This document shows, piece after piece, positions 173-62,227 of a stretch of 64,000 nucleotides of DNA; within the stretch, counting starts at the first letter, position 1, and each line of letters starts with the position of its first letter. The notes under the pieces are model-generated. The model saw nothing but the letters and a program-made list of their open reading frames with translations. It was not told the DNA's origin and did not search any database. This DNA comes from Gammaproteobacteria bacterium. Its GTDB lineage: Bacteria; Pseudomonadota; Gammaproteobacteria; Steroidobacterales; Rariloculaceae. Both the position numbers and the translations under genes were made by a program. Location of the stretch: positions 115 through 64,114 of the forward strand of contig JBDTOT010000023.1 in assembly GCA_039933105.1 (NCBI GenBank), written 5' to 3'.

Positions 173-300
173 TGTTTCTTGCGAGTCACGCGCGAGCCGA
201 TTTTGTAAACTTGGGGCTCGTGCGGGGCTTGGCCATCCGTGCCTGCCCGGTGCCCGGGCCTAACTGCTCGGCAGTGCCGGTGGCTTACGGCTATTATTAG

Positions 301-16180: not shown

Positions 16181-16918
16181 GTGAGACGCGATTTGCTCGT
16201 TCTCGTCATGGGGCTGACGCTGCTCGCGAGTAGTATCGCGTGCGCGCAGTTCGGCCGCAGGTTCGGGCGCCAGATCCAGGACAACGACGCGCCGCCCACC
16301 GAGTTCGTCGCGATGCGCTGGCATTTCGGCACGAACGGCGCGATCGGCCACATGGGCTGGTCGCACAACTACCCGGAATCCGAGATCAACCTGAACGGCT
16401 TCATCGGACGTACGACGCGCGTCGACGTCGAAGACAACTCATACCGGCTCATAGAGCTCGGCAGCCCTGAAATCTTCGATTACCCATTCGCCTATATTTC
16501 CGAGCCCGGCGAGATGGAGATGACGCAGACCGAGGTCGCAAACCTGCGCGAGTACATCCTTCGCGGCGGCTTCATTCTGATCGACGACTTCGACACCTGG
16601 CACATGAACAACCTGCGCGAGGAAATGCACCGCGCACTTCCCGAACGCGACTTCGAACGGCTCGACGGCGCCAACGCCATCTGGGACCTCGTATTCAAGG
16701 TCGAAGACCTCGAGAGCATGGCGCCGTATGTGCAAGGCGACGACCCCGTGTACTACGGACTCGTCAACGACGTGAGCCAGATCGCGATCATGGCGCTGCA
16801 CAACAATGACCTTGCAAACTTCTGGGAGTGGTACGGCAGCCCGCAGTATCCGTTGCGCCCGGCTACGGACGCGTTCCGCATGGGCACGAACTTCGTCGTG
16901 CACGCCATGACGCATTGA
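16181..16918 (+). CDS. DUF4159-like secreted protein
   Basis: 245 aa with a signal peptide. GWSHNYPESEINL and GGFILIDDF motifs match my recollection of DUF4159 family proteins. Confidence 0.65.
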   Translation: MRRDLLVLVMGLTLLASSIACAQFGRRFGRQIQDNDAPPTEFVAMRWHFGTNGAIGHMGWSHNYPESEINLNGFIGRTTRVDVEDNSYRLIELGSPEIFDYPFAYISEPGEMEMTQTEVANLREYILRGGFILIDDFDTWHMNNLREEMHRALPERDFERLDGANAIWDLVFKVEDLESMAPYVQGDDPVYYGLVNDVSQIAIMALHNNDLANFWEWYGSPQYPLRPATDAFRMGTNFVVHAMTH

Positions 16919-16941
16919 ACAGCGACACAAGAGGACACAGG

Positions 16942-17877
16942 ATGACACTCGACACAGAATCGACACGGCGCGAGTTCCTGCAGCGCGGCGCGTTACTGAC
17001 CGCGGCCGCAAGCGTCGCGAGCTCGCTGCCGCTCGCGGCGCTCGCACAGCGCGGCGTGCCGCAGCGGCCGATCCCGAGCACGGGCGAGATGCTGCCGGTG
17101 ATCGGCTTGGGTTCGAGCAAAGTGGTGGAGGAGATCGCGGCGAAAGGCAGCGACCCGGCGCTCGGCGTGCTGCGCGCCCTCGTGGCGAACGGCGGCAAGT
17201 TCGTCGACACGTGGCCGCGCAACGCCGACAACGATGCGGCGTTCGGCCGTTTGCTCGCGCTGCCGGAATTCAACGGCAAGCTGTTTGTGACCACGAAGGT
17301 CGATCAGGTCGGCAAGGACGTCGGCATTGCGCAGTTCAAACAGGCGCAGAAGCTGTATGGTCGGCAGACGCTCGACCTCGTGCAGATCTTCAGCCTCGTG
17401 GACGTCGATACGCACTGGCCGAGTCTGAAGCAGTGGAAGGCCGAGGGCGCGGCCCGTTACATCGGCGTCACGGTATCGCAGCCCGCAAAGTACGCGGATC
17501 TCGAACGGTTTCTGGCGCGCGAGAAACCGGATTTCGTGCAGATGAACTACTCGATCACGGAGCGCGGCGTCGAGCAACGGCTGCTCAAGGTGGCCCACGA
17601 TCGCGGGGTGGCCATCGTGATCAACCGGCCGTTCATGAACGGCGCGTACTTCGACAAGCTCAACGGCAAACCGCTGCCCGAGTGGGCGGCCGAGTTCGAG
17701 TGCGGCACGTGGGCGCAGTTCTCCTTGAAATACATACTGGCGAATCCGCTCTTGACCTGTGTGCTGACGGAGACCGCCAACCCGCAGCACATGATGGACA
17801 ACCTCGTTACGGCGCTCGGACCGCTGCCCGATGCGGCAGCGCGCCAGCGTATGCGCGAAGTCATCGATCGAGTCTGA
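16942..17877 (+). CDS. aldo/keto reductase with twin-arginine signal
   Basis: ATG at 16942 preceded by GAGGA. It has TRREFLQRGALLTAAASVA (Tat-like). The AKR core follows (IGLGS, DTWPRNADN, YIGVT, QMNYS). Confidence 0.85.
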   Translation: MTLDTESTRREFLQRGALLTAAASVASSLPLAALAQRGVPQRPIPSTGEMLPVIGLGSSKVVEEIAAKGSDPALGVLRALVANGGKFVDTWPRNADNDAAFGRLLALPEFNGKLFVTTKVDQVGKDVGIAQFKQAQKLYGRQTLDLVQIFSLVDVDTHWPSLKQWKAEGAARYIGVTVSQPAKYADLERFLAREKPDFVQMNYSITERGVEQRLLKVAHDRGVAIVINRPFMNGAYFDKLNGKPLPEWAAEFECGTWAQFSLKYILANPLLTCVLTETANPQHMMDNLVTALGPLPDAAARQRMREVIDRV

Positions 17878-45465: not shown

Positions 45466-45906
45466 ATGCACGTCGATCGTTCACCCACCGGTCGTGTGGC
45501 GGCCGTGGCCTTCCTGACTGCGGTGTGCGCGCTCGCCGGCATCGTTGCTCTGGCGCAAACGGAGCCGCGCACGCTGCGCGACGGCGTGTTCTCGGCCGCT
45601 CAAGCCGCGCGCGGACAGCGCATCTTCAAGTCGATCTGCGTGGATTGTCACGAGATCGAAGAGTTCACGGGGGCGGGCGCCTACTTGGAAGAACACGACG
45701 GCAAGCCGTTGTGGGACACGTTCGACTTCGTCTCGGAGAACATGCCGGACGACGATCCTGGCTCGCTCAAGCCCGCCGACTACACGGCCGTGCTCGCGTA
45801 CATTTTCAGCGTGTATGGTTTGCCGGCGGGCGACGCTGATTTGCCGGACGACCGCGCGGTGCTCGAAGCGATCACGATCACGCGCCCGGGATCTCCCGGC
45901 GGGTAA
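45466..45906 (+). CDS. membrane-anchored or secreted c-type cytochrome
   Basis: 146 aa with a hydrophobic N-terminus and a single CVDCH haem motif. It starts 2 nt after the def stop. Confidence 0.7.
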   Translation: MHVDRSPTGRVAAVAFLTAVCALAGIVALAQTEPRTLRDGVFSAAQAARGQRIFKSICVDCHEIEEFTGAGAYLEEHDGKPLWDTFDFVSENMPDDDPGSLKPADYTAVLAYIFSVYGLPAGDADLPDDRAVLEAITITRPGSPGG

Positions 45907-45946: not shown

Positions 45947-48016
45947 CTACCAGATTCGAACGCGCTGGTCCGGCGGCAGATAGAGCTTCGCCATCGTTTT
46001 CACGTTGAATGCCCGATACCACTCGTCCATGTTGCGCACCGGGCCGTTCGAGCGAAACTCCGCAGGCGAGTGCGGATCGGACACGACTTGGCGGCGCAGC
46101 TGACCTTCGCGGATCAGCGAGCGCCAGATTTGTCCGAAGCCAAGGAAGAAACGCTGAACGCCCGTGAAGCCGTCGATGATCGGCGGCTCTTTACCGTTCA
46201 ACGAGATCTTGTAAGCCTCGAGCGCGACGTTGAGGCCGCCGAGGTCGCCAATGTTCTCACCGAGCGTGAAGCGACCGTCCACGAACAGCCCGGGCAGGGG
46301 TTCGAACTTCTGGTACTGATCCGCTAGCTTGCTCGTGAGCTCCTGGAAACGGTGTTCGTCGTCCGCGTTCCACCAGCTGCGCAATACGCCGTGCTCGTCC
46401 GATTTTGCGCCTTGGTCGTCGAAGCCGTGTCCCATCTCGTGCCCGATCACGGCGCCGATCGCGCCGTAGTTCACCGCCGGATCTGCGTTCAAATCGAAGA
46501 ACGGTGGTTGGAGGATCGCCGCGGGGAACACGATCTCGTTCCACGAGAAGCGGTAGTAAGCGTTCACCGTTTGGGGAGACATTCCCCATTCGCCGCGATC
46601 GGCAGGTTTGGTCAAGCGCTCGAGATCGCGCGCACGCGCGAATGCTGCTTCGCGCTTACGATTAGCGAAGGGTTCGTCGGGCGCGATCTCGAGCGCGGTG
46701 TAATCGCGCCATCGGTCCGGATAACCGATTTTGACGTTGATCGTCTCGAGCTTTCGCAACGCGGCGCTTTTCGTTGTCTTGCTCATCCACGCGAGCTGCG
46801 AGATTCGAGCTCGATAGGCCGCGCGCAGATTTTCGACGAGCGCGCGCATCGCCTCTTTCGATTGCGGCGAGAAATACCGCTTCACGTAGAGTTGGCCCGA
46901 GGCTTCGCCCATGGACGGGCCGCTCAACGCGCCCACGGCGCGCCGCCAGCGCTCGAGTTGGTCGGGCTGTCCGGAGATCGTGCGACCAAAGAATTCGAAC
47001 CGGGCCTCGTCGAACGCCTTCGGCAACACGTCCGCCATTCGATCGAGGTAGTGAAAGGTCATGTAGGCGCGCCAGGTCTCGACCGGCGTGGCGCGGAACA
47101 ATTTGGCCAATCCCTGCACGGCATCCGGCTGCGCGACCACGAAGAAGTCCTGGCTCGGTGCGCCGAAACTCGCGAGGCTCGCATCCCACGGCAGCTCGGG
47201 GGCAAAAGCTCTGAGCTCGGCCCCGGATTTCGGGTTGTAGGTCAAGTCGCGGTCGCGGGATTTGTCGCGTGTCCAGTGAAGCGCCGCGATCTTGCGCTCA
47301 ACTTCGACGATCGCGTCGGCGCTCGCGGCGGCAGCCGGGTATGCGGCGAGGGTGAGTAGCGTTTCGATGTAAGTGTGGTATTTCGTTCGCGCCTCGGCGA
47401 ACCGCGCGTCTTCCTTCAAGTAGTAGTCGCGATCGGGCATGCCGAGGCCCGATTGTGCGACGCCGATGACGTAGACGTCAGGACGTTTCTCATCCGTGTC
47501 TACGAACAGGCCAATCGGCAGATTACCGGCGGTGTCCCTTGCAGCGGCGAATGCCACGATGTCTTCGTGCGTTCGCGCCGCCGCGATTCGCGCCAAGTCC
47601 GGTCTCGCAGGCGCGAGGTTTTTAGCCTCGATCGCGGCGGCGTCGAGGTACGCGCGATAGTGATCGATGGCCTTGCGCTCGGGAGATCCGGCCGTGATGG
47701 GCCCTTTGGCAGCGTCCTCGACGGCGTCGCGCACATGGCCTTCCGACTCGGCGCGTAATGTGTCGAAGGAGCCCCAGCGTGAACGGTCCGGCGGGATCTG
47801 TGTCGTCTTCATCCACGTGCCGCCGACGTAGTGGCAGAAGTCATCGCCCGGCTCGATCGAGCGGTCCATGCCCGCAATGTCGAAACCCCACGTGCCGATG
47901 GTGGCCTTGCCGATGGCGGCGCGGGCGGTGCGCCAGAAATTGGTTACGCCGAGGCCCACGGCCACGGCCGACGCAGTACCCACGAGAACGGCGCGACGAT
48001 TCAAAAGCGGAGACAT
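45947..48016 (-). CDS. M13 family metallopeptidase (PepO/endothelin-converting enzyme-like)
   Basis: 689 aa with a Tat- or Sec-like N-terminus. HEMGHGFD and GENIGDLGG zinc-binding motifs are present. Confidence 0.9.
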   Translation of the reverse strand: MSPLLNRRAVLVGTASAVAVGLGVTNFWRTARAAIGKATIGTWGFDIAGMDRSIEPGDDFCHYVGGTWMKTTQIPPDRSRWGSFDTLRAESEGHVRDAVEDAAKGPITAGSPERKAIDHYRAYLDAAAIEAKNLAPARPDLARIAAARTHEDIVAFAAARDTAGNLPIGLFVDTDEKRPDVYVIGVAQSGLGMPDRDYYLKEDARFAEARTKYHTYIETLLTLAAYPAAAASADAIVEVERKIAALHWTRDKSRDRDLTYNPKSGAELRAFAPELPWDASLASFGAPSQDFFVVAQPDAVQGLAKLFRATPVETWRAYMTFHYLDRMADVLPKAFDEARFEFFGRTISGQPDQLERWRRAVGALSGPSMGEASGQLYVKRYFSPQSKEAMRALVENLRAAYRARISQLAWMSKTTKSAALRKLETINVKIGYPDRWRDYTALEIAPDEPFANRKREAAFARARDLERLTKPADRGEWGMSPQTVNAYYRFSWNEIVFPAAILQPPFFDLNADPAVNYGAIGAVIGHEMGHGFDDQGAKSDEHGVLRSWWNADDEHRFQELTSKLADQYQKFEPLPGLFVDGRFTLGENIGDLGGLNVALEAYKISLNGKEPPIIDGFTGVQRFFLGFGQIWRSLIREGQLRRQVVSDPHSPAEFRSNGPVRNMDEWYRAFNVKTMAKLYLPPDQRVRIW

Positions 48017-49480: not shown

Positions 49481-51247
49481 TCAGCGCGTCGGCAGCGCGA
49501 ACACGAACAGCTTGTTGCGGCTGTCGTTGGGCGCGACATCCGGCGTCAGCCGCGAGAGCCCGCCCGTCATGTTGGAGCGGCCGGTGCTCACCGCTACGTA
49601 CTGCTTGCCGCCGGCTTCGAACGTGATCGGGTGCCCGGTGACCTGCGAGCCTACATTCGTTTCCCACAGCACCTTGCCCGTCGTCGCGTCGAACGCACGA
49701 AAGTTGCCCGCCACGTCGCCGCCGAATACGAGGTCGCCCGCCGTTGCGACGAGCGCCGTCACGCCCGCGCGCGTGTCGAACCGCCACACGGCCTTGCCGG
49801 TCTCGGCCGAGAGCGCGCGCACCGTGCCGACCTTACCGTCCGCGTCCGGCGTGATCATTGTCTCGCCGCTGATGGCGTAGAGAAGCTCCGGTTTTCGCTC
49901 GGTCGTCGCGGCCGTGGTCACGTTCCAGCAGGTGTTCTGCAACGGCATGTACATGGCCTTCGTGCGCGGGCTGTATGCGCCGGCAGGCCAGTTCTTGCCT
50001 CCGTTCGTCGTCGGGCAGATGAACAGCGTTTGATTCGCCGCGGTGAACAAGGCTTTTTCGTTGACCGTGACCTTGCCGGTGGCGCCGTCGATACCCGCGA
50101 CCACATTCTGGAAGATGGTCGGCCGTGCCCACAGAAATTCGCCCGTGACGCGATCGAGCGTGTAGACGAGGCCGGTCTTGCCGGGTATTCCCGTCACGAC
50201 TTTGCGGTGCTCGCCGGGCTTCAGCCGAGGGTTGATCCACGGCACTTCGCTCTTGTCGGGCGCAACGGCCGTGTCGAGCAGAATTCGCTCGAACGGGTGA
50301 TCGAGATCCCAGTGGTCGACGACGTGCTGGTAGTACCACGCGGTTTCGCCGGTGGCCGGACGCAGCGCGAGCGTCGAGTTGTGGTAGAGGTACTGCTTGT
50401 CATTGCCGGCCAGCAGGAACTTCGGTGCCGGTGCCGTGACCGACGTGCCCATATAGATGAGATCGAGCTCGGGGTCGTAGCTCGGCATCATCCACGCGCC
50501 GACGTGCCAACGGCCCGAATCCGGTATGTCGCCCCAACTGTCGCCGCCGGGCTCGCCAGGTTTCGGGATCGTGCGCTTGCGCCACAGTTCCTTACCGGTG
50601 TGCGCGTCGTGCGCCGTGATCACGCACGCATCGGGCCCGCCCTGCGGCTGGCAATTGCGGCCCGAGATCAGCTTGCCCGCGACGACGAAAGGCGCCGTGC
50701 CCTGTTTCACGTGACTCACGTGATAGTCGAAGACCTTGTTCTCCCACACGAGCTTGCCGGTCGCTGCATCGAGCGCGTAGATCGTGTTGTCGGCGCCGTT
50801 GTCGATGATCAGTCGATCGTAGATCGCGAGGTTGCGATTCGTCTGCGGGAACGGCACGAACTTGCCCAGATCTTCCGGGAGTGCGCGACGGTGTTCCCAG
50901 AGTGTCTTGCCGGTCGCCGCGTCGAGCGCGACGGTGTGGTCCGACGGGTTGGGGAAATACATGACGCCGTCGTGCACGATCGGCGTGCCTTCCTGCGACG
51001 GCGCGTCGTCGAGGTCGATCGACCATGCGACCTTCAAACTACCGACGTTGCTGCGGTTGATCTGGTCGAGTGGGCTGTAGCCCCACGCATCGAATGTGCG
51101 CCGCCACATGAGCCAGTCGGCGTCGTCCGGGTGCCTAAGCATCGCGTCGGTCACGGGGCGGAACTCGTGCTCGGCGGCATTCGCGCCGATAGCGGCGGCG
51201 AAGCAGAGCGAAACAGCGAGTAGGGTGGTGCGGGTTGGCATCGGCAA
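49481..51247 (-). CDS. PQQ-dependent dehydrogenase (methanol/ethanol-family-like quinoprotein)
   Basis: 588 aa with a signal peptide. WLMWRRTFDAWGYSPLDQINRSNVGSLKVAWS and an eight-blade W-motif pattern are present. Confidence 0.85.
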   Translation of the reverse strand: MPMPTRTTLLAVSLCFAAAIGANAAEHEFRPVTDAMLRHPDDADWLMWRRTFDAWGYSPLDQINRSNVGSLKVAWSIDLDDAPSQEGTPIVHDGVMYFPNPSDHTVALDAATGKTLWEHRRALPEDLGKFVPFPQTNRNLAIYDRLIIDNGADNTIYALDAATGKLVWENKVFDYHVSHVKQGTAPFVVAGKLISGRNCQPQGGPDACVITAHDAHTGKELWRKRTIPKPGEPGGDSWGDIPDSGRWHVGAWMMPSYDPELDLIYMGTSVTAPAPKFLLAGNDKQYLYHNSTLALRPATGETAWYYQHVVDHWDLDHPFERILLDTAVAPDKSEVPWINPRLKPGEHRKVVTGIPGKTGLVYTLDRVTGEFLWARPTIFQNVVAGIDGATGKVTVNEKALFTAANQTLFICPTTNGGKNWPAGAYSPRTKAMYMPLQNTCWNVTTAATTERKPELLYAISGETMITPDADGKVGTVRALSAETGKAVWRFDTRAGVTALVATAGDLVFGGDVAGNFRAFDATTGKVLWETNVGSQVTGHPITFEAGGKQYVAVSTGRSNMTGGLSRLTPDVAPNDSRNKLFVFALPTR

Positions 51248-51407: not shown

Positions 51408-52871
51408 ATGGCCTTCAAGCTGCACACTCACTGGTCACGTCGCGACCTGCTCGGCAGGGCCGCTCTCGTGCTCGGCGCCGGCGCGGTTCCCTCGCTGCTC
51501 GCGCGTGCGCAGCAGGTCGGCAGCGTGATGGGGGCGCTAAGTACCTACATGGTCGGCGCGCGCGCGCGTTCGGTGCCCGCACGCGTGCTCGAGCAAGCGA
51601 AGTTCCACATTCTCGACACGCTGGCCGCGATGATCTCCGGATCGCAGTTGCGGCCGGGCATCGCCGCGCTGCGATTTGCGGCGGCACAGGCGGCGGGGGG
51701 CAGCGCCACGGTCGTCGCTACCAAAACGTTGCTGAATCCACTCGAAGCCGCGTTCGTAAATGGCGTGCTCGCGCATTCGGACGAGACCGATGACTCGCAT
51801 GGGCAGTCGCAGTCGCATCCGGGCTCGGCCGTGGTGCCGGCCGCGCTCGCAATGGCCGAAGCAGTGGGTGCGAGCGGCGAGCAGTTCCTGCGCGCCGTGA
51901 CGTTGGGGTATGACGTCGGCCCGCGTATCACGATGGCACTCGGCGGCACTGCGTTTAGAACCGACTCGCGGCGTAGCACGCATGCGTTCGCGGGTACGTT
52001 CGGGGCGGCAGCTGCCGCGGGCAGCCTGGCCGCTCTCGACGAGCAGCAGATGCGCTGGTTGCTCGACTACGCGTCGCAGCAGGCCGCCGGCTACGCCGTG
52101 TGGGGACGCGATACGGAACACGTCGAGAAGGCGTTCGTGTTCGGCGGCATGCCGGCCCGCGCGGGCGTGACGGCCGCCGAAGTCGTGCGCGCAGGGTGGA
52201 CCGGCGTCGACGACGTATTCTCGGGCGAGGACAACTTCTTTCGCGTCAATGCGCCGGGCGCGAAACTCGAATTGCTCGTCGAGGCGCTCGGCGAGCGCTA
52301 CGAGATCGCCAACACGGATATCAAGAAGTGGACCGTCGGCACGCCCATCCAGGCTCCACTCGATGCGCTCGAGACTTTGTTGCGGCGGCACGGCTTCTCC
52401 GTAGCCGACGTGACCGAGGTCGTGGTGCGGCTCGCGCCTGCGGTCGGTTCGGTCGTCGACAACCGCGACATTCCCGATATCTGCCTGCAGCACATACTCG
52501 CGGTCATGCTCGTCGACGGAACGGTGTCGTTCCATGCGGCGCATGACATGGCGCGCATGCAGGATCCGATCGTGCTGCACGAGCGGCGCAAGGTTCGCTA
52601 CGTGCCGGACGCCGAGCTCACCGCGCTGCTGCCGGTTCGCGTCGCGATAGTCGAAGTCGCGTTGCGTGACGGCACGCGGCATAGCGAGCGCGTGCAAGCG
52701 GTGCGCGGCACGCCTCGCAATCCGATGGGGCGGGACGAGATCGTTGCCAAAGCGCGCGACCTGATCGGGCCGGTGCTCAGCGGCGCCACGGCGGATCGGC
52801 TGATCGACAAGCTGCTCGCGCTGGAGACGCTCGGTGACATTCGCGCGCTGCGGCCGTTGCTGCAGCGATAG
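51408..52871 (+). CDS. MmgE/PrpD family protein with twin-arginine signal
   Basis: 487 aa. SRRDLLGRAALVLGAGAVPSLLARAQQ precedes a PrpD-like fold (HILDTLAAMISG, HSDETDDSH). Confidence 0.8.
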   Translation: MAFKLHTHWSRRDLLGRAALVLGAGAVPSLLARAQQVGSVMGALSTYMVGARARSVPARVLEQAKFHILDTLAAMISGSQLRPGIAALRFAAAQAAGGSATVVATKTLLNPLEAAFVNGVLAHSDETDDSHGQSQSHPGSAVVPAALAMAEAVGASGEQFLRAVTLGYDVGPRITMALGGTAFRTDSRRSTHAFAGTFGAAAAAGSLAALDEQQMRWLLDYASQQAAGYAVWGRDTEHVEKAFVFGGMPARAGVTAAEVVRAGWTGVDDVFSGEDNFFRVNAPGAKLELLVEALGERYEIANTDIKKWTVGTPIQAPLDALETLLRRHGFSVADVTEVVVRLAPAVGSVVDNRDIPDICLQHILAVMLVDGTVSFHAAHDMARMQDPIVLHERRKVRYVPDAELTALLPVRVAIVEVALRDGTRHSERVQAVRGTPRNPMGRDEIVAKARDLIGPVLSGATADRLIDKLLALETLGDIRALRPLLQR

Positions 52872-52888: not shown

Positions 52889-54055
52889 ATGAAACGTAGC
52901 ACTGACCGCATTCTTACGACGCACGCGGGCAGCCTGCCGCGGCCCGACTATCTGCTCGAAGGCTATCGCGAGCGGCCCGCGGAGCCGTCGACGTCGGCGC
53001 TCCTGCGCGGCGCAGTCGCCGAGGTCGTGGCGCAGCAGGTCGTGGCTGGCATTGATGTCGTCAACGATGGCGAGTATGGCAAGCCCATGACGGAAGCAGT
53101 CGACTATGGCGCGTGGGCCACGTATGTCTCCGGCAGGCTGAGCGGCTTCGAGCAGCGCGAGCTCACGAACGTCGCAGGCGTACTCAAGGAGATCATGGGG
53201 GACAGTAAGGATCGGAAGGACTTCGCCGCGTTCTACGCGGCCGGTTCCCCCATGGTCGAGCGTCGTGGGCCGCCGCGCGTCTCGATCAATGTCGGACCGA
53301 TTGCATACACCGGCCAGGCGCTCGTCCAGCGCGACATCGATAACTTCAAGGCGGCGCTCGGCGCGGCGCCGGCCGAAGATGCGTACTTGAGCGCTGTCTT
53401 CACGGGTGTGCAGTTCGGCAAGAGCGAGTACTACCGAAGCAGCGAGGAACAGGCGGTGGCCTGCGCCGAGGCCATGCGCGAGGAGTACCAGGCGATCGTG
53501 AATGCGGGCCTGAACGTGCAGATCGACGACCCGATCCTCGTCAACGTCTACGAGTTTCGCTATTCGGAAAACCGCGATGTAGCCGCTTTCCGCAAGTGGG
53601 CGGCCGAGCACGTGGCGCTCGTGAACCATGCGCTCGAGGGCATTCCGGAGGAGCGCATTCGCTATCACCTATGTTGGGGCAGCTGGCACGGGCCGCACAG
53701 CGCCGACCTGCCGATGCGGGACGTCATCGATCTGTTGCTGAAGGTCAAAGCCAGTCAGTACTCGTTCGAGGCGGCGAACCCGCAGCACGAGCACGAGTGG
53801 AAGGTGTGGAAGGACGTGAAGCTGCCTGCGGGGCGCGCGCTGATCCCCGGCGTCGTCACGCACAAGACGACGATCCTCGAGCATCCCGAGACCGTGTGCG
53901 ACCGGATCGTGCGCTACGCGAACGTGGTGGGTCGCGAGAACGTGATCGCGGGAACCGATTGCGGAATGGGCGGACGCATTCACCCTCAGGTTGCATGGGC
54001 CAAGCTGAAAGCGCTCGCAGAGGGCGCCGCGCTCGCCACCGAGCAGCTATGGTGA
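52889..54055 (+). CDS. cobalamin-independent methionine synthase II (MetE C-terminal-like) family protein
   Basis: 388 aa. ILTTHAGSLPRP, QIDDP and a H-x-C ... C zinc-ligand pattern (YHLCWG, GTDCGMG) are present. Confidence 0.75.
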   Translation: MKRSTDRILTTHAGSLPRPDYLLEGYRERPAEPSTSALLRGAVAEVVAQQVVAGIDVVNDGEYGKPMTEAVDYGAWATYVSGRLSGFEQRELTNVAGVLKEIMGDSKDRKDFAAFYAAGSPMVERRGPPRVSINVGPIAYTGQALVQRDIDNFKAALGAAPAEDAYLSAVFTGVQFGKSEYYRSSEEQAVACAEAMREEYQAIVNAGLNVQIDDPILVNVYEFRYSENRDVAAFRKWAAEHVALVNHALEGIPEERIRYHLCWGSWHGPHSADLPMRDVIDLLLKVKASQYSFEAANPQHEHEWKVWKDVKLPAGRALIPGVVTHKTTILEHPETVCDRIVRYANVVGRENVIAGTDCGMGGRIHPQVAWAKLKALAEGAALATEQLW

Positions 54056-54103
54056 CCGGGCCGTTCTGGCTAGTAATAAACATAAGAATGAGTGCGTAAC
54101 TTC

Positions 54104-54967
54104 ATGATTGAGCTACGAGTGGGTGGTGTGCCCGAGCACTTCAATTTGCCGTGGCATTTGGCCGTGGAAGCCCGCGTGCCGGAACGCCTCGGCGTGGGGC
54201 TCACATGGCGGGACTATCCCGATGGCTCGGGCGCCATGGCGGCCGCGCTGCGCTCAGGTGAGCTCGACGCGGCACTCTTGTTGACAGAGGGCGCAATGGC
54301 CGGCATCGCGAACGGCGGCGGATTCAAGATCGCAAGTCTGTACACGGAATCGTCGTTGATCTGGGGCATCCACGTGCCCGCGCGCTCGCAATTTGCGAGC
54401 GTGGGCGACATCCGCGGCGCCCGCTACGCGATCAGTCGCTTGGGTTCGGGCTCGCATCTGATGGCGGTCGTGCACGCTCGTGCGCAGGCGTGGCCGGTCG
54501 ACACGCTCGAGTGGGTGACGGTGCGCAATCTCGCCGGCGCCATCGACGCGTTCGCGAGCGGCGCGGCCGATGTGTTCTTCTGGGAGAAGTTCATGACGAA
54601 GCCGCTGGTCGATGACGGCCGGTTTCGGCGCGTCGGTGAATTCCTAGCGCCATGGCCAGCGTTCGTCGTGTGTGTCGCCGACTGCGTCGGAGCGCCACAG
54701 CGCGCAGCACTGCGCGCGCTGGTGGCCGCGGTTCTCGCCGAGGCCGCAACCATGGTGGCTCGGCAGGATGCCTCGGTGGTGATCGGCCAGCGCTACTCGC
54801 TCGCACCCGACGATGTGGCGGAGTGGTTGCGGGTAACGCGCTGGGCGAGCGATGTCGGCGTCGAAACCAGCGACCTCACGCAGGTGACGGCGGCGTTGCA
54901 GGATCTGCAGCTCGTGCCGCCGACGTTCCAACCCGAGAGCGCGCTGCTGCCGCTAAACGGGAGCTGA
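54104..54967 (+). CDS. NMT1/THI5-like (periplasmic-binding-fold) protein without obvious signal
   Basis: LRVGGVPEHFNLPWHLA and SRLGSGSHLM motifs. The start could be GTG 54092 or ATG 54104. Confidence 0.65.
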   Translation: MIELRVGGVPEHFNLPWHLAVEARVPERLGVGLTWRDYPDGSGAMAAALRSGELDAALLLTEGAMAGIANGGGFKIASLYTESSLIWGIHVPARSQFASVGDIRGARYAISRLGSGSHLMAVVHARAQAWPVDTLEWVTVRNLAGAIDAFASGAADVFFWEKFMTKPLVDDGRFRRVGEFLAPWPAFVVCVADCVGAPQRAALRALVAAVLAEAATMVARQDASVVIGQRYSLAPDDVAEWLRVTRWASDVGVETSDLTQVTAALQDLQLVPPTFQPESALLPLNGS

Positions 54968-54977
54968 GCAACAGCGA

Positions 54978-55364
54978 TTACTTGATCGCGAAGCCGGCGC
55001 CCGGGTTGAGTTCCTTGCCGTCGCCACGCGTGGCCTTCATCCACGCCGCTGCGGGGCGGCCGTCCTTCATCGGGTGGCCGGTGATCGTGACCTCGGTGCC
55101 CGGAGAGAGATCGCTCTTGCGGATACCGGCACGAGTCAGAGTGCTCGGGCCCTCGGCCTCGAAGCCCCACGTCGTGACGGTGCCATCCGTGTTCTTGACG
55201 TCGACGAGCAACCACGAGTGCGGGTTCGTGTACTGAAACTCTTTCACGGTGCCCTTGACGGTGACCTCTTTGGCGTCATCGAACATGACGGCCGAGTGGT
55301 GCGCAAAGCTGGGCGCTGCTACGAGTGCGAGCCCGCCAAATGCGATTGCCAGAATCTGTTTCAT
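54978..55364 (-). CDS. small secreted HHS-motif protein S5
   Basis: 128 aa. Signal peptide ...VAAPSFA|HHSAVMFD, then NPH and PGTEVTITGHP. Its AGGAG ribosome-binding site overlaps the TAG stop of L5. Confidence 0.8.
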   Translation of the reverse strand: MKQILAIAFGGLALVAAPSFAHHSAVMFDDAKEVTVKGTVKEFQYTNPHSWLLVDVKNTDGTVTTWGFEAEGPSTLTRAGIRKSDLSPGTEVTITGHPMKDGRPAAAWMKATRGDGKELNPGAGFAIK

Positions 55365-55373
55365 CGTCGTCTC

Positions 55374-56333
55374 CTACTTGTCGCCTTTCTTCGTGAAATT
55401 GAAGTTCGTGAAATCAGAACTGCCGGTATCGGTCTTGGTGACCGTATTGTTTTGGTTTTCCCCACAGTCCCAGTAACGGATACGCAGACTCTTGTCGTCG
55501 TTCGACAGGCGCTTGTAGGTCTGTTGAGTGTACCAAGGTTCCGCAAGAGCCGGCGGGTCGAAGGCCCAGATGTCGACGGCCATCGTATCGGCATCCGCCT
55601 TTTGCCAGATTTCGACGGTCTCGACCTGCTCTGTGTAGTACGGCTGAATGCGCTGGTATTGACCGGCCCGCATCTGCGCGGTGTGGATCACGAGCTTGTT
55701 GCCGTCCCAGAAGCCGATCGAGTCGCCTTCCCAGAGCGGATAGGCGTCTTCTGCACTCGGGTGATCGCGGCCATCTGTGTAGACGCGACGCATCTCATTC
55801 TGCATCTCGTTGACGAGATACGTTTCCTGCGGAGTCACGACCCATTCGCGCAAAAACGGCTCGACCATCCATCGCGGCATGCCGGCAGGCTCGCAGTTGC
55901 TCAGCGGATCGAACTCGATGCCCCGGTTGATCTTGTCGAGCTTGTCCATGAGGCGTTTGCTGAATTCGGGCGTCAGCTTTGCTGTCGGCAATGCCGTGGG
56001 AGACCCTTGATCCGGATCCCAGAAGAACGGGCTCGCTTCGCGCGTCCAGACACCCGTCCAATCGGGAACCGTCTCCCATAACAGCGCTTTGCCGCCCTGA
56101 GCTTGTTGCTTCAAGTGGTCGTACAGCGCCCGAGCCGTCTTGTATTCAATGCCAAGATTCGTCAGGCGCTGCTTTTCGGCGGCGCGCGCTGCGGGTATGG
56201 AGGGCGCCGCGGCCGCCGTACCCGTGGCGGCGGGGGGCTGCGGTGCAGGTTGTTGTTGACAGGCGGTCGCAGCGATTGTCGCGATCGCGACGCACAGCAT
56301 CCGGCAGCCAGCAGTGCTGATAGTGCTCATCAT
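55374..56333 (-). CDS. partner protein L5 of the S/L module, probable lipoprotein
   Basis: 319 aa with a lipobox-like IAATAC followed by a Q/P/A-rich linker. Motifs: PDWTGVW, DPLSNCEPAGMP, MRRVYTDGRD, GDSIGFWDGNKLVI, WDCGEN. Confidence 0.75.
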   Translation of the reverse strand: MMSTISTAGCRMLCVAIATIAATACQQQPAPQPPAATGTAAAAPSIPAARAAEKQRLTNLGIEYKTARALYDHLKQQAQGGKALLWETVPDWTGVWTREASPFFWDPDQGSPTALPTAKLTPEFSKRLMDKLDKINRGIEFDPLSNCEPAGMPRWMVEPFLREWVVTPQETYLVNEMQNEMRRVYTDGRDHPSAEDAYPLWEGDSIGFWDGNKLVIHTAQMRAGQYQRIQPYYTEQVETVEIWQKADADTMAVDIWAFDPPALAEPWYTQQTYKRLSNDDKSLRIRYWDCGENQNNTVTKTDTGSSDFTNFNFTKKGDK

Positions 56334-56487: not shown

Positions 56488-56865
56488 ATGCGTACCGGTT
56501 GGCGTTATGTCGCTGCACTCCTGTGCGCTTTGGCGGTCGTCGCAGCCTTGCCCGCGTCTGGTCACCATTCCTTCGCGGTCTACGACTTCGAACAACAGAT
56601 TCCGTTCGAGGGCGTCGTGGCTACGTTGAGCTTCAAGAACCCGCACATGTCGATGACCTTGACGCACACGCGCCCGGATGGCAGTACCGAGACGATCGAT
56701 TTCGTCGAAGGCGCGCCGGCGAACATGGCCGTGCGCGGCGGCCTCACGCCTGACATGATCAAGCCGGGTACCAAGATCACTGCGATCGGTTCGCCGCGGC
56801 GCGACAATCCGAACGTGTTCTTCCTGCGCCACGTTCGGCTCGCGGACGGCCGCGAATTCATGTAG
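56488..56865 (+). CDS. small secreted HHS-motif protein S6 (no adjacent L on its own strand)
   Basis: 125 aa with a good ribosome-binding site (AAGAGGGTAAGGA). Signal peptide ...ALPASG|HHSFAVYD, then NPH and PGTKITAIGSP. Confidence 0.8.
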   Translation: MRTGWRYVAALLCALAVVAALPASGHHSFAVYDFEQQIPFEGVVATLSFKNPHMSMTLTHTRPDGSTETIDFVEGAPANMAVRGGLTPDMIKPGTKITAIGSPRRDNPNVFFLRHVRLADGREFM

Positions 56866-56898
56866 CCGCGGCCGCGGCCGCAATCCATCGTCTGCGAT

Positions 56899-57315
56899 CT
56901 ACTTGCCGCCCGAGGCTTGGTTCCTGCGCGCCAGCACGTCGCGTAGCAACGGCAGGTCGTTCAAGGCGGGCGCGTCGACCGGGATCGTGTTCAGATACGC
57001 CCAGATGTCCGCTAGCGTTTGCGCCGATGCGTCCGGCATCGCGGGCATGTTGGGCAACGGTGAGTTCTGCACGAACGTGATGAAGCCCTCGAGCGGATAC
57101 TTCATCGGCACTAAACGGCGCTCGCCGGTCTGCGCGTCGAAGCCGTGGCAGGCGTAACAGTTGTAGGTATCCGAGAACAGCTGTTTGCCGCGTTCGGCAT
57201 TGCCAACCGGCGCGCTGCCGGCGCTTTGCTGCGCCGGCGACGGCGTGACGACGACGAATAGACCGAGCGCGATCGATGGAAGCAGTGAGGCATGTGCCAG
57301 CTTACGCAGTTTCAT
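56899..57315 (-). CDS. secreted mono-haem c-type cytochrome
   Basis: 138 aa with a signal peptide. It has a CYACH haem motif and a distal NMPAMP Met region. It lies 14 nt downstream of the TPP enzyme gene. Confidence 0.8.
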   Translation of the reverse strand: MKLRKLAHASLLPSIALGLFVVVTPSPAQQSAGSAPVGNAERGKQLFSDTYNCYACHGFDAQTGERRLVPMKYPLEGFITFVQNSPLPNMPAMPDASAQTLADIWAYLNTIPVDAPALNDLPLLRDVLARRNQASGGK

Positions 57316-57329
57316 AACCGAAATACCGC

Positions 57330-59252
57330 CTATCGGGGTTGTGAGACGACGTCGAGCAGTGCGGGCTCGCCCGCGCGAACACGCGCGAGCGCACGCTCGA
57401 GAGCCGGTGCCAACGCGTTCGGATCGCTGATCGGGCCTTCGGCGTACACGCCGTAGCCCTGTGCGATCTTGGCGTAATCTGGCGCCGGTTCGCGAATCAC
57501 GTTGCCGATATCCACTTTGTCGTTGCCGCGACCGCGCCGTGCTGCCGTGCGCTGCACGAGCATGACTTCCGCGTGATATGCGCGGTTATTGTGGATGATC
57601 AGGAGCAGCGGGATCTTGTGGTGCGCCGCCGTCCACAGTGCGCCGGCGCCGACGAAGTTGAAGTCGCCGTCGCCGACGATGCCGATGGATAGTCGGCCAT
57701 GCGCTTTGTGCGCCAGCGCGCCGCCGACCGAGGCCGGTGTGTCGTAGCCGATGCCGAAGCCACCGGAGTCGCCGTTGTAGCGATAGTGCTTGTCGTGATT
57801 CAGCAGCCGGCGTTGCCATTGGCCCGTGAACTGATGGCCCGAGACGATCGCCCAGTCGTCGTTCTGAATCTGGCGGCCGAGCTCGGTGATCATGCGCGGC
57901 ACGCTGATCGGGCTCGCGTTCCAGCCGTAACGTGCGTCGTCGATCTCACGCTCGTGCACCGCTTTGTGCGCAGCCGCGACCTGGGTACGGCGCGCCGTGC
58001 GTGCGCGCGCCGCGTCGCGCGGGCTCTGGCGGCGAATCTCTTCGATCAACGAGGGTAGCGTCGCTTCAGCGTCCGCGGCGATCGCGAGGTCGACGTCGGT
58101 GTAGCTGCCGTAGTCGTGGATGTTGTGGCCCTGCGACAGGTACTCGGCGCAGATGCTGATCGTCTTACCGCCAGTCGCGTGTGTCTGGCGCACCGATGGC
58201 ACCATGTCGTTCAGCTCGAGGCCCAAGATCACGTCCGGTTTGTAGTCGGCGCCGCCTGAGCCGTACAGCGCGTGCCACGACGGGAAGTCCTGCCACGAGC
58301 CGTACGTGCCGACGTCCACTGGCGATTGCAGCAGCTCGGCGAGTTCGAGCAACAGGTCCCAGCCGGCCGGCGTGCGTCCGAGCTTGCCTGGCCGAATCAG
58401 CGGCCGCTCGGCACTGGCGAGCCACTTGGCCGCCTCGCGAACGGCGCCGGTCTCCCCTTGCGGGACCGCAGGCAGGATCACCTTCGGGATCGGCAAGCTC
58501 ATGCCGTTTGGGATTGCGGCTTCTTGGAGCTCCGAGTCGACGACCAGCAAGGTCGGGCCCATCGGCGGCGTGCGGCCGATCGTGTACGCGCGCATCGCGA
58601 TCCCTGCGAATACGTCGAGCCGCGTGGGCTCGTCGTCCATCTTCATGAAGTCGCGCACGATCGAGCCCATGTCTTGTGCGCTATGCGGGCGATTGATGAC
58701 CGACGTGGGATTCCGCGGTTGTCCGACAACGGCGAACACCGGCACGCGGTCGCACCACGCGTGGAACAGCCCCATCGACGCGTGCAGCAGACCGACGGTG
58801 CCGTGCATCAACGTCATCATCGGTTTGCCGGCCGCTTTCGCGTAACTATGTGCGATGGCCGCGCCGGCTTCCTCATGCAGTACGGTAAGAATCTCGGGCT
58901 TGCGGTTGCCGCCGTGGTTAATGAGCGATTCGTGTATGCCCTCGAACGCCGAGCCGGGGTTCACCGCTACGTAATCGAAATCGAGTGCCTTCAGCACGTC
59001 GACCATGTGATCGGAGCCGGGGTGCTCGATGAAGGCTGCGCCGACACGTGGCTCCGGCGGAACAAAATCCTTCCGGGCGTCGGCGTCCGTCGGTCGCGCG
59101 ACCGCGGGGCGTGCGGTGGGTGGCGCTTGCTGCGCGTCGCTGGCGTTGCCGACCAACACGCTTGCGGCACCTGCGGCGCCGCCGGCAGCGCCCTTCAAGA
59201 ATCTTCTTCGATCGACGGACGGTGTCGCGTCGCTGTCGCTGCGTTTGCCCAC
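57330..59252 (-). CDS. thiamine-pyrophosphate enzyme (acetolactate-synthase fold) with twin-arginine signal
   Basis: GTG at 59252 is preceded by GGGGA (the track ATG is at 59306). DRRRFLKGAAGGAAGAASV matches the RRxFLK Tat consensus. The TPP_N domain and the GDGDF ... NN pyrophosphate motif are present. Confidence 0.85.
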   Translation of the reverse strand: MGKRSDSDATPSVDRRRFLKGAAGGAAGAASVLVGNASDAQQAPPTARPAVARPTDADARKDFVPPEPRVGAAFIEHPGSDHMVDVLKALDFDYVAVNPGSAFEGIHESLINHGGNRKPEILTVLHEEAGAAIAHSYAKAAGKPMMTLMHGTVGLLHASMGLFHAWCDRVPVFAVVGQPRNPTSVINRPHSAQDMGSIVRDFMKMDDEPTRLDVFAGIAMRAYTIGRTPPMGPTLLVVDSELQEAAIPNGMSLPIPKVILPAVPQGETGAVREAAKWLASAERPLIRPGKLGRTPAGWDLLLELAELLQSPVDVGTYGSWQDFPSWHALYGSGGADYKPDVILGLELNDMVPSVRQTHATGGKTISICAEYLSQGHNIHDYGSYTDVDLAIAADAEATLPSLIEEIRRQSPRDAARARTARRTQVAAAHKAVHEREIDDARYGWNASPISVPRMITELGRQIQNDDWAIVSGHQFTGQWQRRLLNHDKHYRYNGDSGGFGIGYDTPASVGGALAHKAHGRLSIGIVGDGDFNFVGAGALWTAAHHKIPLLLIIHNNRAYHAEVMLVQRTAARRGRGNDKVDIGNVIREPAPDYAKIAQGYGVYAEGPISDPNALAPALERALARVRAGEPALLDVVSQPR

Positions 59253-59370
59253 GGTTATCCCCCTATGCGATCCGGGCTCCGCAGTGCAAAAGGTGCGGCG
59301 GAGCAATCGCGGGGATCATACCCCAATCGTTTCGGTGGGAAAGGACGGTGCCGTTCCGCGCGTGCGGCGG

Positions 59371-62216: not shown

Positions 62217-62227
62217 GCCGGTCTGGC

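What the first reader, a model, noticed from the sequence alone, without database searches (positions are those of the whole stretch)
56899..59252. Tat-exported thiamine-pyrophosphate enzyme in an operon with a c-type cytochrome
The 640-aa acetolactate-synthase-fold protein has a textbook twin-arginine motif (DRRRFLKG, followed by an A/G-rich h-region) ahead of the TPP_N domain. It retains the GDG-x24-NN TPP/Mg motif. A secreted mono-haem cytochrome c (CYACH) follows after 14 nt. TPP enzymes of this fold are normally cytoplasmic. A periplasmic, Tat-dependent member paired with a cytochrome c suggests an unusual periplasmic oxidative TPP chemistry, with the cytochrome as electron acceptor. I know of no characterised example.
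Basis: partly seen in the sequence, partly recalled or inferred. Interest (0 to 1): 0.7.

Follow-up and report, generated by a model that had tools for sequence, protein, structure and literature searches.

The report
Periplasmic thiamine enzyme paired with cytochrome c
A thiamine-pyrophosphate enzyme of a normally cytoplasmic type carries a conserved export signal for folded proteins and almost always sits beside its own small cytochrome c, which points to an undescribed kind of periplasmic dehydrogenase common in soil bacteria.

Summary
Window 57330..59252(-) encodes a 640-aa TPP enzyme with a PYR domain, a divergent middle domain and a PP domain. Its N-terminus is a twin-arginine signal (DRRRFLKG, A/G-rich h-region, SDA|QQ). 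A Sec-type mono-haem cytochrome c (CYACH, Met90-Pro91) follows 14 nt downstream at 56899..57315(-).

Both unusual features are conserved:
- The RRxFL motif is in 22/22 representatives of a clade that is monophyletic in 100/100 NJ bootstraps. The clade spans Gamma-, Beta- and Alphaproteobacteria, Acidobacteriota and Gemmatimonadota.
- 66 of 72 loci with enough flanking DNA carry a homologue of this cytochrome next to the TPP gene. It lies downstream, upstream or convergent, and in several loci the start and stop codons overlap.
- The nearest signal-less relatives are a negative control: 0 of 80 loci have the cytochrome, and none has a credible Tat signal.

The catalytic Glu and the GDG-x25-NN motif are intact. 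The FAD signatures of ALS, PoxB and Gcl are absent. No curated family, solved structure or paper describes this enzyme.

The most likely function is a Tat-exported 2-oxoacid (or aldehyde):cytochrome c oxidoreductase, possibly flavin-free. The substrate is unknown and the redox role is inferred, not shown. Rhizorhabdus wittichii RW1 has the module and could be used for experiments.

The parts
57330..59252 (-). Gene for the 640-aa Tat-signal-bearing TPP enzyme (precursor)
   Evidence: ORF list. Pfam TPP_N, TPP_M (partial) and TPP_C. AF2 model with mean pLDDT 87 and the three-domain fold of TPP decarboxylase-type enzymes.
59258..59264 (-). Shine-Dalgarno-like AGGGGGA, 5 nt upstream of the GTG start
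   Evidence: Read directly from the sequence.
59133..59252 (-). Twin-arginine signal peptide, aa 1-40: n-region, D-R-R-R-F-L-K-G, A/G-rich h-region, SDA|QQ cleavage site
   Evidence: R15 and R16 conserved 22/22, F18 21/22, L19 20/22, A40 21/22 in clade representatives, and the region is absent from the sister clade. Disordered in the AF2 model, residues 1-49 with pLDDT below 50. Weak Pfam TAT_signal hit. One homologue is named 'twin-arginine translocation signal domain-containing protein' by NCBI.
59193..59210 (-). Core twin-arginine motif R15-R16-R17-F18-L19-K20
58698..59018 (-). PYR (TPP_enzyme_N) domain, aa 79-185, with the cofactor-activating Glu127 (58872-58874)
   Evidence: Pfam. E127 is invariant in A2 and nearly invariant in A4, which includes E. 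coli Gcl, PoxB, IlvI and Oxc.
57918..58451 (-). Divergent middle domain, about aa 268-445, lacking the FAD/ADP-binding signatures
   Evidence: Partial Pfam TPP_M match, 21.5 bits against a cutoff of 30.4. Alignment A4 shows the G-x-G loop replaced by GKL, the GMxGxxG segment deleted and RFDDR absent.
57348..57821 (-). PP (TPP_enzyme_C) domain, aa 478-635
   Evidence: Pfam.
57585..57674 (-). TPP/Mg2+ motif G527-D-G ... N555-N556 (GDG-x25-NN). It is followed by the clade-specific segment R-A-Y-H560-A-E562-V-M564
   Evidence: D528, N555 and N556 are invariant, including against the E. coli enzymes. H554, H560, E562, M564 and Q567 are conserved only in the Tat clade.
57316..57329 (-). 14-nt intergenic spacer between the TPP stop codon and the cytochrome c start codon
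   Evidence: In other lineages the two genes overlap by 4 nt or share a boundary coordinate.
56899..57315 (-). Gene for the 138-aa mono-haem class I cytochrome c (precursor with a Sec-type signal)
   Evidence: Pfam Cytochrome_CBB3 and Cytochrom_C. A homologue is adjacent to the TPP gene in 66/72 loci with room.
57145..57159 (-). Haem attachment motif C53-Y-A-C-H57
   Evidence: C53 and C56 conserved 67/67, H57 66/67 among partner cytochromes.
57043..57048 (-). M90-P91, the probable sixth (Met) haem ligand
   Evidence: Conserved 67/67. The role as ligand is inferred from class I cytochrome c architecture.

Best explanation
The two genes encode a periplasmic, TPP-dependent dehydrogenase and its dedicated electron acceptor.

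Proposed steps:
1. The TPP protein folds, dimerises and binds TPP-Mg2+ in the cytoplasm. TPP active sites lie at dimer interfaces.
2. The folded protein is exported by the Tat pathway, and the 40-residue signal is cleaved after SDA.
3. The cytochrome c is exported unfolded by Sec and receives its haem in the periplasm.
4. In the periplasm the enzyme adds a 2-oxo acid, with loss of CO2, or an aldehyde to the TPP ylide. This forms the enamine (hydroxyalkyl-TPP).
5. The enamine is oxidised in two one-electron steps by the cytochrome c, which carries the electrons to a terminal oxidase.
6. The acyl-TPP is hydrolysed to a carboxylate.

Because the flavin signatures of related oxidases are missing, electron transfer is probably flavin-free. 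The cytochrome would then play the role that ferricyanide plays in classical TPP-enzyme assays.

What is shown:
- gene structure and motifs;
- conservation of the signal;
- conservation and co-evolution of the cytochrome partner;
- absence of both features from the sister clade.

What is inferred:
- export;
- complex formation;
- direction of electron flow;
- absence of flavin;
- substrate class. My rough split is 2-oxo acid about 45%, aldehyde about 25%, other about 30%.
For: - Signal: the Tat motif, h-region and AxA site are present, and are conserved in 22/22 representatives down to 38% identity and in nearly all of 80 genomic loci from at least five phyla or classes.
- Single origin: the Tat clade is monophyletic in 100/100 NJ bootstraps computed on the mature part only.
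- Partner: the cytochrome homologue is adjacent in 66/72 loci with room. It lies downstream on the same strand in 51, upstream on the same strand in 6, and convergent in 7, so the linkage survives rearrangement.
- Coupling: the genes overlap by 4 nt in six of the loci, and in R. wittichii RW1 they share a boundary coordinate. This suggests translational coupling.
- Co-evolution: identities of the TPP protein and the cytochrome to the window co-vary (Spearman 0.87, n=66).
- Cytochrome features: CxxCH and Met-Pro are essentially invariant, and the sequences begin with a hydrophobic signal-like N-terminus.
- Negative control: 0/80 sister-clade loci have the cytochrome. Two of 66 have a stray RR match, which I judge spurious.
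- Independent lineages: those fetched separately (RW1; P0124, taxon not named; a Pseudomonadales lineage) show the same pair.
- Catalytic competence: the catalytic Glu and TPP/Mg motif are intact.
- No flavin: FAD signatures are absent.
- Context: neighbours are periplasmic oxidative enzymes and uptake proteins, including PQQ dehydrogenases, TonB receptors, Mo enzymes and other cytochromes.
Against: - There is no biochemical evidence of any kind.
- No substrate can be deduced. Apart from the cytochrome, no neighbour is present in more than about 25% of loci.
- A flavin-free route from TPP to a haem c has no precedent, and the distance from the buried TPP to a docked haem is unknown.
- The Pfam TAT_signal score is below its gathering threshold. 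TatP and SignalP could not be run.
- The absence of FAD is judged from motif and indel comparison with four E. coli enzymes. It is not based on a structure with ligands.
- PQQ dehydrogenases recur nearby in 14-16 of 80 loci, and the cytochrome could in principle serve them instead.
Confidence: 0.6

Rival explanations
1. The TPP enzyme is periplasmic but not a redox enzyme. It would act as a decarboxylase, lyase or carboligase on aldehydes or 2-oxo acids produced by periplasmic dehydrogenases. The adjacent cytochrome c would be the electron acceptor of another enzyme, for example the nearby PQQ dehydrogenase, much as cytochrome c550/cL serves ethanol or methanol dehydrogenase.
For: - No FAD signatures, as in the non-oxidative BFD and BAL enzymes. 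The best sequence and fold matches are BFD-type decarboxylases, BAL and glyoxylate carboligase.
- A PQQ dehydrogenase lies within about 1-7 kb in 14-16 of 80 loci in two phyla, and in the window at 49481..51247.
Against: - The cytochrome tracks the TPP gene, not the PQQ gene. It is adjacent in 66/72 loci, while most loci have no PQQ dehydrogenase within 8 kb.
- It stays adjacent through three different gene arrangements, and overlaps the TPP gene by 4 nt in several lineages.
- The window has another small cytochrome c (45466..45906) closer to the PQQ gene.
Confidence: 0.15
2. It is a pyruvate-oxidase-like flavoenzyme after all. The middle domain would bind FAD, or another redox cofactor, in a non-canonical way. 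Electrons would then flow from TPP through the flavin to cytochrome c, as in periplasmic flavoprotein:cytochrome c dehydrogenases.
For: - A three-domain fold with a Rossmann-like middle domain is retained.
- All known oxidative enzymes of this fold use FAD (established knowledge).
- Tat export is typical of proteins that carry tightly bound redox cofactors.
Against: - The G-x-G loop is GKL here, and is GRA, DRL or DRT in other clade members.
- The GMxGxxG segment is deleted and the RFDDR-type motif is absent. All three are present in E. coli IlvI, and Gcl and PoxB carry them wholly or in variant form.
- The Pfam TPP_M match is only partial and below threshold.
Confidence: 0.15
3. The RR-containing N-terminus is not a functional export signal. 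The protein would stay cytoplasmic, or be anchored by an uncleaved signal, and the neighbouring cytochrome would be coincidental.
For: The Pfam TAT_signal score is below threshold. No export experiment exists.
Against: - The motif, the h-region and the AxA site are conserved across phyla and are absent from the sister clade.
- The partner is itself a secreted protein.
- The Tat signal and the cytochrome appear together on the tree.
Confidence: 0.05

Closest known systems
Benzoylformate decarboxylase-type TPP enzymes (PDB 4q9d, 6qsi, 1bfd; NCBIfam NF005485) and NCBIfam NF006203 (PRK08327) 'thiamine pyrophosphate-requiring protein'
   Same: Same three-domain TPP decarboxylase-type fold, activating Glu and GDG...NN motif. 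Apparently no flavin. These are the best sequence and profile matches.
   Different: - Only about 20% identity.
- Scores are far below family cutoffs: 199 against 456 bits for PRK08327, and 143 against 493 bits for BFD.
- Those enzymes are cytoplasmic, have no signal peptide and have no cytochrome partner.
Pyruvate oxidase / PoxB (pyruvate:quinone oxidoreductase; formerly listed as pyruvate dehydrogenase (cytochrome), EC 1.2.2.2)
   Same: A TPP enzyme of the same fold that oxidatively decarboxylates a 2-oxo acid and feeds electrons into the respiratory chain.
   Different: PoxB needs FAD, is a cytoplasmic peripheral membrane protein with a C-terminal lipid-binding segment, and reduces quinone. 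Here the FAD motifs and the C-terminal extension are absent, a Tat signal is present, and the presumed acceptor is a soluble cytochrome c.
Pyruvate:ferredoxin oxidoreductase (PFOR) family
   Same: Flavin-free oxidation of the TPP-bound intermediate by sequential one-electron transfers through a TPP radical. This is the closest mechanistic precedent for the proposed chemistry.
   Different: PFOR has an unrelated domain architecture, [4Fe-4S] clusters, a cytoplasmic location and a ferredoxin acceptor. The protein here has no invariant cysteines.
Periplasmic two-gene dehydrogenase/cytochrome c modules: SorAB sulfite dehydrogenase, NicA2-CycN nicotine dehydrogenase, PQQ alcohol dehydrogenase with cytochrome c550/cL
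   Same: Same genetic and cellular logic: a cofactor-loaded catalytic subunit is exported, by Tat in SorA and NicA2, and a Sec-exported mono-haem cytochrome c encoded next to it acts as dedicated acceptor. This comparison rests on established knowledge and was not tested here.
   Different: The cofactor is molybdopterin, FAD or PQQ. None of these modules uses TPP.

Membership tests
TPP-dependent decarboxylase-type (POX/ALS/BFD) superfamily | PYR domain with the cofactor-activating Glu | tested here: met
   Pfam TPP_enzyme_N, E 1.5e-19. E127 aligns with the activating Glu position in E. coli Gcl, PoxB, IlvI and Oxc.
TPP-dependent decarboxylase-type (POX/ALS/BFD) superfamily | PP domain with the GDG-x(24-27)-NN TPP/Mg2+ motif | tested here: met
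   Pfam TPP_enzyme_C, E 5e-20. D528, N555 and N556 are invariant.
TPP-dependent decarboxylase-type (POX/ALS/BFD) superfamily | Three-domain alpha/beta fold | tested here: met
   AF2 model with pLDDT 87. Foldseek TM-scores (normalised to the target) of 0.75-0.84 to Gcl, BFD, BAL, HACL, ALS and POX.
Acetolactate synthase large subunit (the name given by JGI annotation) | Reaches the curated ALS model score | tested here: not met
   TIGR00118 scores 89 bits against a cutoff of 538. All ALS equivalog models are far below their cutoffs.
Acetolactate synthase large subunit (the name given by JGI annotation) | FAD-binding signatures (GGG loop, GMxG segment, RFDDR motif) | tested here: not met
   Alignment A4 shows GKL, a deletion, and LELNDM at the three positions.
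Acetolactate synthase large subunit (the name given by JGI annotation) | Adjacent small regulatory subunit gene | tested here: not met
   The downstream gene is a cytochrome c. Neighbourhood clustering of the 80 loci turned up no recurrent regulatory small-subunit gene.
Benzoylformate decarboxylase | Reaches the curated model score | tested here: not met
   NF005485 scores 142.7 bits against a cutoff of 493. The best PDB BFD-like chain gives E 3e-27 at about 21% identity.
Pyruvate oxidase / PoxB | FAD site and C-terminal membrane-binding segment | tested here: not met
   Both are missing in alignment A4. NF006591 scores 58.7 bits against a cutoff of 792.
Tat (twin-arginine) export substrates | S/T-R-R-x-F-L-K consensus, weakly hydrophobic h-region, AxA cleavage site | tested here: met
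   DRRRFLKG, then GAAGGAAGAASVLVGNA, then SDA|QQ. Conserved across the clade.
Tat (twin-arginine) export substrates | Passes a trained predictor or profile threshold | tested here: inconclusive
   Pfam PF10518 scores 17.6 bits against a cutoff of 22.7. PF10518 is precomputed for homologues P0088, P0102 and P0118, and NCBI names P0063 a Tat-signal protein. TatP and SignalP were not available.
Tat (twin-arginine) export substrates | Tat-dependent export shown experimentally | not testable with these tools
   Needs fractionation, an RR-to-KK mutant and a tatC mutant.
Class I c-type cytochromes | CxxCH haem attachment site and distal Met ligand, secreted | tested here: met
   C53 and C56 are conserved 67/67, H57 66/67 and M90-P91 67/67. 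A hydrophobic N-terminal signal is present. Pfam PF13442 and PF00034 are above their cutoffs.
PFOR family | Fe-S cluster-binding cysteine motifs | tested here: not met
   The protein has only two Cys residues, and neither is among the invariant or nearly invariant columns.

The most novel reading that the evidence does not exclude
This is the founding member of a new class of periplasmic respiratory dehydrogenases, alongside the PQQ, molybdopterin, flavin and haem classes. A Tat-exported enzyme with TPP as its only organic cofactor would oxidise 2-oxo acids or aldehydes and pass electrons directly from a TPP-radical intermediate to a dedicated cytochrome c, with no flavin and no iron-sulphur cluster.
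Probability: 0.35. Interest if true: 0.88.

Novelty: new variant of a known kind. Interest (0 to 1): 0.74.

Why it matters
As far as I know, and as far as ten literature searches showed, TPP enzymes are regarded as cytoplasmic or organellar. No Tat-exported or cytochrome c-coupled example has been described.

- **Tat cargo.** If exported, this protein would add TPP to the list of cofactors carried across the membrane inside folded Tat substrates.
- **Respiration.** It would add a cofactor class to periplasmic ('extracytoplasmic') respiration.
- **Mechanism.** If it is flavin-free, it would show a natural one-electron acceptor taking electrons straight from a TPP intermediate in the ALS/BFD fold. 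Until now this has been seen only with artificial oxidants or in the unrelated PFOR architecture.
- **Ecology.** The clade is large, with thousands of sequences in soil metagenomes, and it is found in abundant but poorly studied soil lineages: Vicinamibacterales, Rariloculaceae-like Gammaproteobacteria, Usitatibacter/Casimicrobiaceae and Gemmatimonas. It may be a significant unrecognised route of organic-acid or aldehyde oxidation in soils.
- **Annotation.** The family is currently mis-annotated as 'acetolactate synthase'.

Tried and rejected
- **Alternative start downstream of RR.** Rejected on the Shine-Dalgarno sequence, on amino-acid conservation of the signal, and because M83 lies inside the conserved domain.
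- **Membership of a curated family.** NCBIfam, Pfam and PDB sequence searches give nothing above cutoff. This also holds for other clade members and for the sister clade.
- **Substrate from gene context.** Clustering the neighbours of the 80 Tat-clade loci and of the 80 sister-clade loci gave no neighbour beyond the cytochrome in more than about 25% of loci. The sister clade has no conserved neighbour at all.
- **Regulatory RNA, promoter or terminator.** No Rfam hit with E up to 0.1 in 54000-62500. No sigma-70-like promoter, and no terminator above the shuffle expectation.
- **Discriminating FAD from non-FAD relatives by fold search.** Not possible. Both kinds match equally well.
- **Literature.** Ten searches combined Tat, periplasm, TPP/ThDP, cytochrome c, BFD, ALS, DUF6152 and guessed RW1 locus tags. 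They found nothing relevant.
- **Technical failure.** A first tree script using Biopython's BLOSUM distances timed out. I replaced it with a numpy p-distance NJ bootstrap.
- **Complex prediction.** Not attempted. The structure tool takes one chain and returns no coordinates or PAE.
Full report
**1.

The minus-strand ORF 57330..59252 encodes 640 aa from a GTG start. The longest possible ORF starts at a TTG at 59306. AGGGGGA lies 5 nt upstream of the GTG, and close homologues begin at the same position with MAKRSD....

Pfam finds TPP_enzyme_N (aa 79-185) and TPP_enzyme_C (aa 478-635). The TPP_enzyme_M match is partial and below threshold, and the TAT_signal match is weak (17.6 bits against a cutoff of 22.7).

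The N-terminus reads MGKRSDSDATPSVD-RRRFLKG-AAGGAAGAASVLVGNA-SDA|QQ. This gives an n-region, a twin-arginine consensus, a weakly hydrophobic A/G-rich h-region and an AxA-type cleavage site. Glu127 (LHEEAG) and the GDG...NN motif are intact.

Fourteen nucleotides after the stop codon, 56899..57315(-) encodes a 138-aa protein. It has a hydrophobic signal, C53-Y-A-C-H57 and M90-P91, and matches Pfam Cytochrome_CBB3 and Cytochrom_C. The next gene is convergent, so the unit is a two-gene operon. A GGDEF gene ends 118 nt upstream.

**2. The Tat signal is a conserved feature of a clade**

More than 6000 database proteins match the query. The best 120 listed are mostly about 640 aa long, with a few shorter fragments, and they align over the signal. 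RR and F are invariant in a 17-sequence alignment.

A scan of one genome per species returned 80 loci, all from metagenome-assembled genomes:
- Gammaproteobacteria, including Rariloculaceae
- Acidobacteriota (Vicinamibacterales)
- Gemmatimonas
- Burkholderiales, Usitatibacter and Casimicrobiaceae
- Alphaproteobacteria

In nearly all loci with an intact 5' end, an RRxF[LFM]K/T motif followed by an A/G-rich stretch precedes the PYR domain. This holds even at 42-48% identity.

An exhaustive search of 50%-identity representatives shows where the signal stops. P0121 and P0123-P0132 (38-66% identity) all carry RRxFL. From P0134 onward (37% identity or less, about 600 aa) the proteins start 6-30 residues before the PYR domain and have no signal.

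R15 and R16 are conserved 22/22, F18 21/22, L19 20/22 and A40 21/22 in the Tat clade. The sister clade has gaps at these positions.

An NJ tree built only on the mature part (residue 78 onward), rooted with one of four E. coli outgroup sequences (Gcl, PoxB, IlvI, Oxc), recovers the Tat clade as monophyletic in 100/100 bootstraps. The signal was therefore acquired once.

**3. The cytochrome partner is just as conserved, and specific to the clade**

tblastn with the window cytochrome finds a homologue in 66 of the 80 loci. Eight of the other 14 lack room on the contig.

| Position of the cytochrome homologue | Loci |
|---|---|
| Immediately downstream, same strand | 51 |
| Immediately upstream, same strand | 6 |
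| Convergent, just downstream | 7 |
| 0.7-1.4 kb away | 2 |

- Three or four of the six remaining loci with room have a different CxxCH ORF beside the TPP gene.
- In six loci the genes overlap by 4 nt. In Rhizorhabdus wittichii RW1 they share a boundary coordinate.
- Identity of the cytochrome to the window tracks identity of the TPP enzyme (Spearman 0.87, n=66).
- Across 67 partner cytochromes, C53 and C56 are 67/67, H57 is 66/67 (L049 is the exception) and M90-P91 is 67/67.
- Lineages fetched separately show the same pair: RW1, P0124 (taxon not named) and a Pseudomonadales lineage.

As a control I fetched 80 metagenomic loci of the signal-less sister clade. None contains a homologue of the cytochrome. 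The only two RR matches lie in spurious upstream read-through. The Tat signal and the cytochrome therefore appear together on the tree.

**4. What kind of TPP enzyme it is**

- The AF2 model is confident (pLDDT 87), with residues 1-49 disordered.
- It matches glyoxylate carboligase, 4-hydroxybenzoylformate and benzoylformate decarboxylases, benzaldehyde lyase, 2-hydroxyacyl-CoA lyase, ALS, CDH and POX about equally well, at roughly 20% identity.
- The best PDB sequence hit is a BFD-like protein from M. smegmatis (E 3e-27).
- The best NCBIfam model is PRK08327, 'thiamine pyrophosphate-requiring protein', at 199 bits against a cutoff of 456. No member of the Tat or sister clade reaches the cutoff.

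The JGI label 'acetolactate synthase' is therefore not supported.

I aligned the protein with E. coli Gcl, PoxB and IlvI (FAD-binding) and Oxc (ADP-binding). The middle domain differs at three points:

| Feature | FAD/ADP-binding enzymes | This clade |
|---|---|---|
| G-x-G loop | GGG, GSG, GKG | GKL here; GRA, DRL, DRT in other clade members |
| GMxGxxG segment | present in the FAD-binding enzymes | deleted, as in Oxc |
| RFDDR / NRFANR motif | present in IlvI and Gcl | absent |

The assignment of these motifs to FAD binding comes from my knowledge of the AHAS literature. It is not a tool result. I conclude, with moderate confidence, that no flavin is bound in the canonical way.

There are no invariant cysteines, so there is no Fe-S cluster.

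Tat-clade-specific conserved residues cluster just after the NN of the TPP motif: H554, H560, E562, M564 and Q567, plus Y490. This segment lines the active site in related enzymes. These residues are candidates for catalysis or electron relay.

**5. Mechanism**

Three facts need explaining:
- A cofactor-dependent enzyme that is an obligate oligomer has a Tat signal.
- A Sec-exported His/Met cytochrome c is genetically locked to it.
- Both features arose together.

The simplest reading is a periplasmic dehydrogenase with a dedicated acceptor. This is the logic of SorAB, NicA2-CycN and PQQ alcohol dehydrogenase with cytochrome c.

TPP chemistry offers an obvious electron source. The enamine formed after decarboxylation of a 2-oxo acid, or after addition of an aldehyde, is strongly reducing. 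It is oxidised by FAD in pyruvate oxidase, by Fe-S clusters in PFOR, and by ferricyanide in classical assays of many TPP enzymes. With no flavin signature, the cytochrome may take the electrons directly.

This step, the direction of electron flow and the substrate are all inferred.

Gene context gives only a general setting. Neighbours include PQQ dehydrogenases (14-16 of 80 loci, in two phyla), TonB-dependent receptors, Mo enzymes, other cytochromes and Tat-bearing PrpD/MmgE proteins. In RW1 the module sits in an aromatic-catabolic island. This is consistent with periplasmic oxidation of imported organic acids or aldehydes.

**6. Rivals**

- **A non-redox periplasmic decarboxylase or lyase, with the cytochrome serving a PQQ dehydrogenase.** This is disfavoured because the cytochrome follows the TPP gene through rearrangements and overlaps it. 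Most loci also have no PQQ gene nearby.
- **A cryptic flavoenzyme.** This remains possible and would make the system a more ordinary POX-like dehydrogenase.
- **A non-functional signal.** This is very unlikely given its conservation.

**7. Novelty and verdict**

Ten full-text searches found no Tat-exported or cytochrome c-linked TPP enzyme (and for DUF6152). There is no curated family and no solved structure. NCBI's pipeline has noticed the Tat signal in one homologue, but without assigning a function.

I rate it a new variant of a known kind: the TPP decarboxylase-type fold in a new compartment with a new redox partner. There is a realistic chance that the mechanism is categorically new. A cultured, sequenced carrier exists for testing: R. 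wittichii RW1, protein ABQ67889.1.

Noticed in passing
window 51408..52871 (+); also L001, L007, L024, L038: An MmgE/PrpD-family protein, a family that is normally cytoplasmic, carries a twin-arginine motif (HWSRRDLLGRAALVLGAGA). Tat-bearing PrpD homologues also lie near the Tat-TPP gene in Gammaproteobacteria (L001, L007) and in Acidobacteriota (L024, L038: L[ST]RRRVLK[ST]AGGLVAAAG). PrpD homologues near the TPP gene in L051, L068 and L169 lack the signal.
   Followed up: partly
window 54978..55364 (-) and 56488..56865 (+), flanking 55374..56333 (-): Two DUF6152 proteins would have mature N-termini beginning His-His-Ser after the signal peptide (..SFA|HHS..ASG|HHS). That is reminiscent of an N-terminal histidine metal site. 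They flank a 319-aa putative lipoprotein with no Pfam family. The trio recurs in about 20 of the 80 loci, including some Acidobacteriota. No paper mentions DUF6152.
   Followed up: partly
window 49481..51247 (-): A PQQ-dependent dehydrogenase of the methanol/ethanol type scores below the NCBIfam cutoff (372 bits against 480). Homologues lie within about 1-7 kb of the TPP-cytochrome pair in 14-16 of 80 loci, in both Gammaproteobacteria and Acidobacteriota. This may reflect a functional link, with the dehydrogenase producing an aldehyde.
   Followed up: partly
L166 7465..8001 (Rhizorhabdus wittichii RW1, CP000699.1): In RW1 a 178-aa protein with several hydrophobic, probably membrane-spanning stretches and no Pfam family lies directly upstream of the TPP gene, and the two genes share a boundary coordinate (8001). 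It may be a lineage-specific third component. The window has no equivalent. The RW1 module sits beside a recombinase and a Rieske dioxygenase / thiolase / AMP-ligase cluster.
   Followed up: no
L049 about 103..345: One partner cytochrome has CFSCL instead of CxxCH. It is the only exception among the 67 aligned sequences (66 partner cytochromes plus the window's). It may be a sequencing error or a degenerate copy.
   Followed up: no
window 52889..54055 (+) and 54092..54967 (+): A 388-aa protein has only the catalytic domain of cobalamin-independent methionine synthase. Beside it is a Ca3427-like / SsuA-like binding protein with no obvious signal peptide. Both lie between the PrpD gene and the DUF6152 genes, and their function here is unclear.
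   Followed up: no
window 301..1278, 3753..5027, 16828..17877, 45947..48016; 1292..3715; 45466..45906: The window is unusually rich in predicted exported redox proteins. Several further ORFs have RR motifs near the N-terminus. There is also an 807-aa protein with two CxxCH motifs and another small mono-haem cytochrome c.
   Followed up: no
window aa 41-78 of the TPP protein (about 59019..59132): The mature protein begins with a stretch of about 38 residues that the sister clade lacks. It carries a semi-conserved motif (ARPxVARPTEADxRxDFxPPEP; a P-x-V-x-x-P-T core in distant members). AF2 confidence there is low to moderate. It may be a lid or a docking segment.
   Followed up: no
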